Shown: in pieces, positions 27,906-28,039 of the stretch
Layout of the letters: every line of letters begins with the position of its first letter
Numbering within the stretch: position 1 is the stretch's first letter
Assembly (NCBI GenBank): GCA_020137815.1
Contig: CM035353.1
Span: 8,894,455 to 8,958,454, forward strand
Source: Hormiphora californensis
Lineage: Eukaryota; Animalia; Ctenophora
Direction of reading: 5' to 3'
Length of the DNA: 64,000 nt
Program-made: the position numbers and the translations under genes
Notes under the pieces: model-generated
Told to the model about the DNA's origin: nothing
The model's input: the letters and a program-made list of their open reading frames with translations, nothing else
The model's database searches: none

Positions 27906-27906
27906 G

Positions 27907-28039
27907 GGGGGAGTTGGTCCACCTGCCACCACCTCCTATCGGTTTCCCCCGGGCAACAGGGTCACACGGAGTACCTTTTCCCCATCCCCTTTTCCCCTTG
28001 ATCGATTTTCAGGTCCGTGTGGCCGTGGCTAAGCGTGGC
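27907..28039 (+). ncRNA. Candidate HDV-like self-cleaving ribozyme
   Basis: P1 GGGGGAG/TTCCCCC; P2 GCCAC/GTGGC; P3 ACC/GGT around L3 TCCTATC; P1.1 CC/GG; P4 GGTCACACGGA/TCCGTGTGGCC; J4/2 GCTAA with C28029. Confidence 0.72.

What the first reader, a model, noticed from the sequence alone, without database searches (positions are those of the whole stretch)
27906..28039. HDV-like ribozyme fold at the exact 5' junction of an intronic, sense-oriented (GA)n retrotransposon
Seen: every HDV element appears in the correct order (P1, P2, P3 with a 7-nt UCC loop, P1.1, an 11-bp P4, GCUAA J4/2), and the fold starts precisely where (GA)n ends. Known: HDV-like ribozymes process 5' ends of R2, R4 and RTE elements. 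Inference: the element is co-oriented with the PHF21-like gene inside its ~20-kb intron. It could cut its own RNA out of the host pre-mRNA without needing a promoter, and it would sever the host intron co-transcriptionally, as the CPEB3 ribozyme does.
Basis: partly seen in the sequence, partly recalled or inferred. Interest (0 to 1): 0.85.

Follow-up and report, generated by a model that had tools for sequence, protein, structure and literature searches.

The report
Comb-jelly retrotransposon ribozyme lacking signature G
This is a predicted self-cutting RNA at the front of a comb-jelly jumping gene that inserts into GA repeats, a known arrangement, except that it has U where such RNAs normally keep a near-essential G, which would likely slow it and let the host gene's intron be spliced before the cut.

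Summary
The fold is real. P1, P2, P3, P1.1, an 11-bp P4 and the catalytic C28029 all pair as described. Other copies keep the stems (2 of 62 paired sites vary, against 15 of 43 in L4), the two variants compensate (A27958G with U28026C), and three copy junctions restart at G27907, the predicted cut. It heads an intact 5.9-kb RT/restriction-like-endonuclease retrotransposon, R4/Dong-like, inserted in (GA)n, sense within a 20,094-nt intron of a ctenophore PHF21-like gene. That architecture is published: silkmoth Dong cuts itself from TAA repeats, and intron-transcribed ribozyme elements are reviewed. The same change makes the HDV ribozyme 290-fold slower (half-life about 115 min) and was described as absent from nature. 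If that penalty carries over, only about 3-10% of transcripts would be cut before polymerase reaches the next exon, the opposite of the proposed CPEB3-like severing. Cleavage and rate are untested. Verdict: new variant of a known kind.

The parts
27716..27905 (+). Upstream (GA)n target microsatellite, about 95 units
   Evidence: TRF
27907..28039 (+). HDV-type nested double-pseudoknot ribozyme fold; predicted cut between 27906 and 27907
   Evidence: junction footprints at 27907
27907..27913 (+). P1 5' strand (G1 = 27907; registers from 27905 or 27906 also pair), partner 27944-27950
27925..27930 (+). P2 5' strand; partner 28033 and 28035-28039 with C28034 bulged (C>U in organism B)
27931..27943 (+). 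P3 (ACC/GGU) with L3 UCCUAUC; U27939 replaces the signature G25 and A27938 replaces C24
   Evidence: consensus motif from PMC5035012 and PMC3386971
27951..27959 (+). P1.1 GG and J1.1/4 GCAACA; A27958 pairs with U28026 and both change together to G-C in other copies; G27953A variant
27960..28024 (+). P4 (11 bp) closing a variable 43-nt pyrimidine-rich L4
28029..28032 (+). J4/2 with predicted catalytic C28029 (CUAA; CUGA in other copies)
28045..28095 (+). A-rich unstructured stretch after the ribozyme (65% A)
28464..29419 (+). 24-nt tandem array (39 units) in the 1,804-nt 5' UTR
29711..33361 (+). Single intact ORF (1,216 aa): two related N-terminal repeats, RT (YMDD), CCHC knuckle, RHD, PD..D restriction-like endonuclease; no N-terminal zinc finger
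33362..33772 (+). 3' UTR without AATAAA/ATTAAA or poly(A); two conserved terminal hairpins, ending GGACC at the repeat
33773..33908 (+). Downstream (GA)n target microsatellite, 68 units
25449..45542 (+). Host intron (GT..AG, 20,094 nt) of a ctenophore PHF21-like PHD-finger gene, between exons 25318-25448 and 45543-45676

Best explanation
This is the predicted self-cleaving 5' end of a multicopy, (GA)n-targeting, likely R4/Dong-clade retrotransposon of comb jellies, folded like the HDV ribozyme but with U in place of the signature loop G, which likely makes it slow. Mechanism: (1) a copy lying sense in a transcribed (GA)n is read as part of a host transcript (shown: position and orientation; inferred: transcription of this copy); (2) the ribozyme cuts between 27906 and 27907 with C28029 as general acid (inferred from fold, covariation and junction footprints); (3) the released 5'-OH RNA, starting with the folded ribozyme, is translated and used for target-primed reverse transcription at another (GA)n/(TC)n tract (inferred from the clade); (4) because U20-U25 replaces U20-G25, cutting likely takes tens of minutes or more, so most host pre-mRNA would be spliced first and the element RNA would mostly be freed from unspliced or excised intron RNA (inferred, about 55%). 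The PHF21-like intron is an incidental landing site.
For: Fold complete, 0 cores in 30 shuffled windows. Listed substitution sites pooled: 2 of 62 paired positions against 15 of 43 in L4, Fisher p 1.9e-5; the 2 are partners (A27958G, U28026C), together on the single X8 contig covering the region and, by depth matching, on X20 contig 12, at 41% and 33% of depth in X2 and absent in X9. C28029 has no listed variant; A28031G keeps C-N-R-A. Three X2 junctions resume at 27907: joint 27967 to 27907 (may slide 2 nt right), 27954-GTT-27907, and a loose end with non-repeat letters before 27907. (GA)n stands before 27906 in X9 and X20, before a 5'-truncated copy at 28174 in X7 and after the 3' end of L002. 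ORF intact, full-length relatives at 83-89%. Dong cleaves after 7 TAA repeats in vitro. U23/U28 HDV mutant stays active, k2 0.0060 vs 1.74 per min.
Against: No cleavage, rate or RNA end was observed; only contigs were laid, and they cannot show ends. A G-to-A change at this L3 site abolishes cutting in Nasonia R2, and the sow bug R2 fold without the G is inactive. The variant tables are incomplete: hides 11 substitution rows and 37 loose-end rows, and one search did not list 27958 although it is common in X2, so 'no variant in L3' means none listed. One compensating pair is one event. All three 27907 footprints come from one run. The 290-fold figure is from a trans-acting antigenomic construct at 37 C; A27938 or other changes may compensate. 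Clade not tested by a tree. The one RNA-like run of organism A holds next to none of the element's words (X22).
Confidence: 0.72

Rival explanations
1. Fast ribozyme that severs the host intron during transcription: the U-U pair is compensated, the cut comes within minutes, and sense copies lower host mRNA as the CPEB3 ribozyme does.
For: All other active-site features are canonical; L3 has no listed variant in seven runs, as if under selection; CPEB3 half-life of 2-3 min matches 9.9 kb to the next exon (PMC10919898 passages) and here the distance is 17.6 kb. At the wild-type HDV rate over 99.9% would be cut first.
Against: U-U at this pair is 290-fold slower in HDV. The copy belongs to a mobile multicopy family, so there is no sign of host tuning. 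Intron cuts can be survived by exon tethering (Dye 2006: title seen in reference lists; content recalled). Upstream G/GA and the pyrimidine-rich L4 offer competing pairings (-17.6 kcal/mol).
Confidence: 0.2
2. Catalytically dead or vestigial fold kept as a structural 5' module (protein binding, 5' end protection or translation), with element RNA made from an internal promoter, for example in the 24-nt array.
For: Signature G absent; G loss silences two R2 ribozymes. L1Tc's 5' end is both promoter and ribozyme (PMC4035085 passages). A 956-nt tandem array sits in the 5' UTR. One X20 RNA-library contig runs uncut from (GA)n into the fold (precursor or DNA).
Against: C28029, G1, U20 and P1.1 have no listed variant; junctions resume at the predicted G1, which a promoter start would match only by coincidence or because the promoter fires there. 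U-U is the best single substitute in HDV (44% cut in 2 h).
Confidence: 0.07
3. Chance fold in G- and C-rich sequence beside a microsatellite.
For: MFE z-score 0.88; no Rfam hit.
Against: 0 of 30 shuffled windows; stem conservation and a compensating pair; exact position at the 5' end of an element class known to carry such ribozymes.
Confidence: 0.01

Closest known systems
Dong (Bombyx mori) and R4 (Ascaris), R4 lineage, with 5' HDV-like ribozymes (Eickbush et al. 2013, PMC3774820, passages and sections 12 and 16 read)
   Same: Microsatellite-targeting single-ORF element whose ribozyme cuts at the 5' junction right after the repeat; Dong was shown to cleave after 7 TAA repeats.
   Different: Target is (GA)n, not TAA; host is a ctenophore; long 5' UTR with a tandem array; L3 lacks the conserved G. 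The Dong and R4 active-site sequences are in figures and a supplement I could not see, so they may share the change.
HDV genomic/antigenomic ribozymes and the lab mutant U23/U28 (Levesque et al. 2012, PMC3386971, passages and section 5 read)
   Same: Same topology, 7-nt L3 opening UCC, 2-bp P1.1, catalytic C; the natural pair here equals the U23/U28 mutant.
   Different: [quoted passage not shown] Here a second change (A at loop position 5) accompanies it, and G1 pairs with C.
Mammalian CPEB3 intronic ribozyme (Chen et al. 2024, PMC10919898, passages read)
   Same: HDV-type fold, sense in a long Pol II intron, kilobases before the next exon.
   Different: CPEB3 is single-copy, conserved, keeps G25-U20 and has a 2-3 min half-life; this is one copy of a mobile family with a predicted slow core.
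Baggins and RTE elements transcribed from introns (review PMC6765202, passages read; primary paper Ruminski 2011 not held)
   Same: Promoterless elements in introns freed by an HDV-like ribozyme.
   Different: Those are other clades and not reported there as microsatellite-specific.
Kibi (TC repeats) and Togen ((TG)n) microsatellite-targeting elements (PMC3812793, PMC4640811, passages read)
   Same: Kibi uses the same dinucleotide target class; Togen shows dinucleotide targeting by NeSL-related elements.
   Different: Kibi is an APE-type fish element; this one encodes a restriction-like endonuclease.

Membership tests
HDV-like ribozymes | Nested double pseudoknot P1, P2, P3, P1.1, P4 in order | tested here: met
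HDV-like ribozymes | Catalytic C in J4/2 followed by N-R-A | tested here: met
   C28029 UAA; CUGA in other copies
HDV-like ribozymes | G1 opening a 6-7-bp P1 at the cut site | tested here: met
   G27907-C27950; junctions resume at 27907; register ambiguous by 1-2 nt
HDV-like ribozymes | U at L3 position 1 and C for P1.1 | tested here: met
   U27934, C27935, C27936
HDV-like ribozymes | G at L3 position 6 (U20-G25 trans wobble, one of six invariant bases per PMC3386971) | tested here: not met
   U27939; no other register gives a G there with the HDV order; no variant listed
HDV-like ribozymes | Stem conservation and covariation across copies | tested here: met
   2 of 62 paired vs 15 of 43 L4 sites, the 2 compensating; tables incomplete, one event
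HDV-like ribozymes | Mg2+-dependent, C-dependent self-cleavage | not testable with these tools
   needs in vitro assay
R4/Dong clade RLE retrotransposons | Single ORF with RT, CCHC knuckle and restriction-like endonuclease | tested here: met
   weak RLE-region match to an R2 structure
R4/Dong clade RLE retrotransposons | No N-terminal zinc finger (unlike R2; rule recalled) | tested here: met
   0 of 7 proteins scanned had a ZF-like motif in the first 400 residues
R4/Dong clade RLE retrotransposons | Sequence-specific insertion in a repeated target | tested here: met
   (GA)n at both ends here, at the 3' end of L002 and at 5' ends in X2, X7, X9, X20; hidden rows not seen
R4/Dong clade RLE retrotransposons | RT phylogeny groups with R4, Dong, Rex6 | tested here: inconclusive
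   No tree: no named R4/Dong protein was returned. Nearest named hits are multicopy Anolis proteins at 37-41%; R4 is one of five active anole clades and the only RLE one among them (recalled). R2 structures match only at E 1e-29.
CPEB3-type host-regulatory intronic ribozyme | Single-copy, conserved at an orthologous intron position | tested here: not met
   Multicopy mobile family with differing flanks; orthologous introns could not be read
CPEB3-type host-regulatory intronic ribozyme | Cleavage rate matched to splicing; effect on host mRNA | not testable with these tools
   estimate only

The most novel reading that the evidence does not exclude
A thriving ctenophore retrotransposon family carries a natural HDV-type ribozyme with U-U in place of the supposedly invariant G-U active-site pair, detuned so that host introns are spliced before the cut. 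A slow ribozyme lets a microsatellite-targeting element live sense-wise in Pol II introns and release its RNA from intron RNA without destroying host mRNA.
Probability: 0.25. Interest if true: 0.75.

Novelty: new variant of a known kind. Interest (0 to 1): 0.5.

Why it matters
Either outcome of one assay is informative. If the ribozyme is slow, it is a natural case of cleavage rate tuned down to spare host splicing, and it bears on how promoterless elements survive in Pol II introns. If it is fast, it shows a natural way to build the HDV active site without G25, a base treated as part of the family signature and fixed in search descriptors, so such ribozymes would have been missed by those searches (Rfam misses this one). 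It also adds a (GA)n-specific RLE element from ctenophores. Without the L3 change the finding would be an ordinary new member of the Dong type.

Tried and rejected
No whole genome is held, so copy number, orientation bias in introns and empty alleles could not be tested. Rfam: no ribozyme hit. MFE z-score uninformative. My first conservation test (0 of 55 paired sites) used only and is superseded, because one search showed variants that one search did not list. Metagenome scan gave 2 loci of 38 candidate stretches, both without the 5' UTR. Pattern scans for the core in viral and prokaryotic contigs: 0 matches; relative P0013 in viral contigs: none. Clade placement by named references failed. 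The bacterial promoter scan is irrelevant to Pol II and shows nothing. A candidate exon at 34625-34690, picked by eye, has no match in the homologs and was dropped. TRIM24/33 as host gene was dropped: no bromodomain follows the PHD in the homologs and PHF21A is the best single-PHD match. Papers not held: Ruminski 2011, Xiong 1993, two ids recalled for Fong 2009 and Webb 2011. PMC9901934, PMC9503719, PMC13188248 and PMC5678591 passages gave nothing decisive.

Full report
Observation. The sequence at 27907-28039 pairs into a complete HDV-type nested double pseudoknot: P1 27907-27913/27944-27950, P2 27925-27930/28033-28039 with C28034 bulged, P3 27931-27933/27941-27943, L3 27934-27940, a 2-bp P1.1, J1.1/4 GCAACA, an 11-bp P4 and C28029 in J4/2. 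My descriptor found only this core in the window and none in 30 shuffled windows; it was written after seeing the site. The minimum-energy fold is unremarkable (z 0.88) and Rfam has no ribozyme hit.

The element. The fold opens a 5,866-nt element (27907-33772) between two (GA)n tracts. It has one intact ORF with RT, CCHC knuckle and restriction-like endonuclease and no N-terminal zinc finger, and a 3' UTR without poly(A) signal that ends in two conserved hairpins. Full-length relatives at 83-89% exist in marine assemblies. (GA)n follows the 3' end of L002 (L001 stops 3 nt short), precedes the 5' end in runs X9 and X20, and precedes a 5'-truncated copy in X7. The nearest named proteins are multicopy Anolis RTs at 37-41%; R4 is one of the five active anole clades. 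I read the element as R4/Dong-like, without a tree.

The host. The PHD exon at 55770-55915 matches Bolinopsis and Mnemiopsis proteins at 79-81% (4 of 4 candidates). tblastn places further exons at about 14760-14923, 25318-25448 and 56264-56342; the exon at 45543-45676 continues the frame (AR|NILLQE against ARNILQLE in the homologs). The intron 25449-45542 is 20,094 nt, GT..AG, on the same strand as the element; the cut site is 2.5 kb from its start and 17.6 kb from its end. PHF21A is the best single-PHD match of the homolog. Splicing was not seen in RNA.

Selection on the fold. Laying seven runs' contigs on the region shows a multicopy family in organisms A, B and C and in marine samples. Pooled listed substitution sites: 2 of 62 paired positions, 3 of 28 unpaired core positions, 15 of 43 in L4, 24 of 151 downstream; paired vs L4 p 1.9e-5. 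The two paired sites are partners, A27958G and U28026C, both on the only X8 contig over the region, and absent from X9. For X20 contig 12 all 20 substitutions can be assigned by depth: 2 of 32 paired (that pair), 1 of 11 unpaired core, 8 of 43 L4, 9 of 121 downstream. Limits: related copies are not independent, hides 11 rows, omitted 27958, and the test is superseded.

Where the RNA began. Three junctions in run X2 resume at 27907: a duplication 27967 to 27907 (may slide 2 nt right), one with GTT between 27954 and 27907, and one with non-repeat letters before 27907. These are the footprints expected if the template's 5' end is G27907, the G1 of the most stable P1 register. X9 and X20 have one further G, which the GA repeat can supply. 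Variable junctions are what Eickbush 2013 describes when the cut is at the element's 5' end.

What is known. Dong, a TAA-targeting R4-lineage element, was shown to self-cleave after 7 TAA repeats (PMC3774820; target). A review states that baggins and RTE elements lack promoters, are transcribed from introns and are likely freed by such ribozymes (PMC6765202).

What was missed. L3 reads UCCUAUC where the R2 motif has UCCUCGU (PMC5035012). The G at loop position 6 forms the trans wobble that holds the catalytic Mg2+ (PMC4836649) and is one of six invariant bases used in bioinformatic searches (PMC3386971). No other register restores it. No variant is listed at 27934-27940, and two contigs spanning L3 differ from the window by a single letter (X16 contig 9, whose one change is G27953A; X2 contig 1), so U-U is very likely family-wide rather than decay of this copy. 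[quoted passage not shown] G-to-A there silences Nasonia R2. At 0.006 per min the half-life is 115 min, and 3% of transcripts would be cut in the 5 min that mammalian Pol II needs for 17.6 kb (10% at 1 kb/min), against over 99.9% at the wild-type rate (speeds). The transfer of that penalty is an assumption.

Mechanism and rivals. Best reading (0.72): a working, likely slow 5'-processing ribozyme of a (GA)n-targeting element; host transcription supplies the RNA, the cut at 27906/27907 frees it, and host splicing mostly finishes first. Rivals: fast intron-severing ribozyme (0.2), vestigial fold with internal promoter (0.07), chance (0.01).

Novelty. The Dong/R4 active-site sequences (figures and supplements), Ruminski 2011 and Repbase could not be seen and may already hold such a case; the R2 consensus legend mentions a K (G or U) position whose place I could not see. 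Earlier findings of this scan: none by sequence or for these words; one search listed 8 notes on other elements' ribozymes, not used. Because a defining base is not met, I file it as working like an HDV ribozyme and as a new variant of the Dong-type arrangement. Interest 0.5.

Noticed in passing
P0010 (Pleurobrachia bachei gene model): Residues 272-894 are this element family's ORF (82% to P0001), merged between the SH3/SH2 part and the kinase domain of a Src-type kinase model: likely a second sense-oriented intronic copy caught by gene prediction.
   Followed up: partly
run X2 on window 27907-27967: Copies with a tandem duplication of the first 48-61 nt that restarts at 27907, as template jumping from the RNA 5' end would give.
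   Followed up: partly
window 27971-28013: The pyrimidine-rich L4 can pair with the upstream GA/G run (-17.6 kcal/mol with 27900-27913, against -11.6 for P1), a possible inhibitory fold that the (GA)n target itself supplies.
   Followed up: partly
window 28464-29419 and 27907-29710: 39 copies of a 24-nt unit and 8 upstream ATGs in the 1,804-nt 5' UTR; how the ORF is translated from an uncapped RNA is open.
   Followed up: no
window 33655-33772; L001, L002: Two strong 3'-terminal hairpins kept in 3 of 3 copies, 1 of 44 pairs with a two-sided change; likely the protein's 3' recognition site.
   Followed up: partly
window 1554-1614: A 58-nt piece 95% like the element's 3' UTR (33629-33686), alone.
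   Followed up: no
window 26165-27505 and 52812-54153: A 1.34-kb palindromic element (664-nt arms, 13-nt spacer), two copies 98-99% alike, in two different introns.
   Followed up: no
window 27629-27707: 38-bp-arm hairpin ending 8 nt before the (GA)n tract; may be the end of another repeat that carries the microsatellite.
   Followed up: no
window 3788-3862, 56987-57061, 57175-57249: Three near-identical weak tRNA-like Rfam hits, two of them in the arms of an inverted repeat; tRNA-derived repeat rather than genes.
   Followed up: no
window 5207-6271 (-), 49893-52697 (+): Fragments of other RT elements, one with an endonuclease domain; no HDV core near them under my descriptor.
   Followed up: partly
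window 36460-37200: Homopolymer-rich stretch that looks like unpolished long-read sequence; a warning that the 7-G run at 27905-27911 may be off by one.
   Followed up: no
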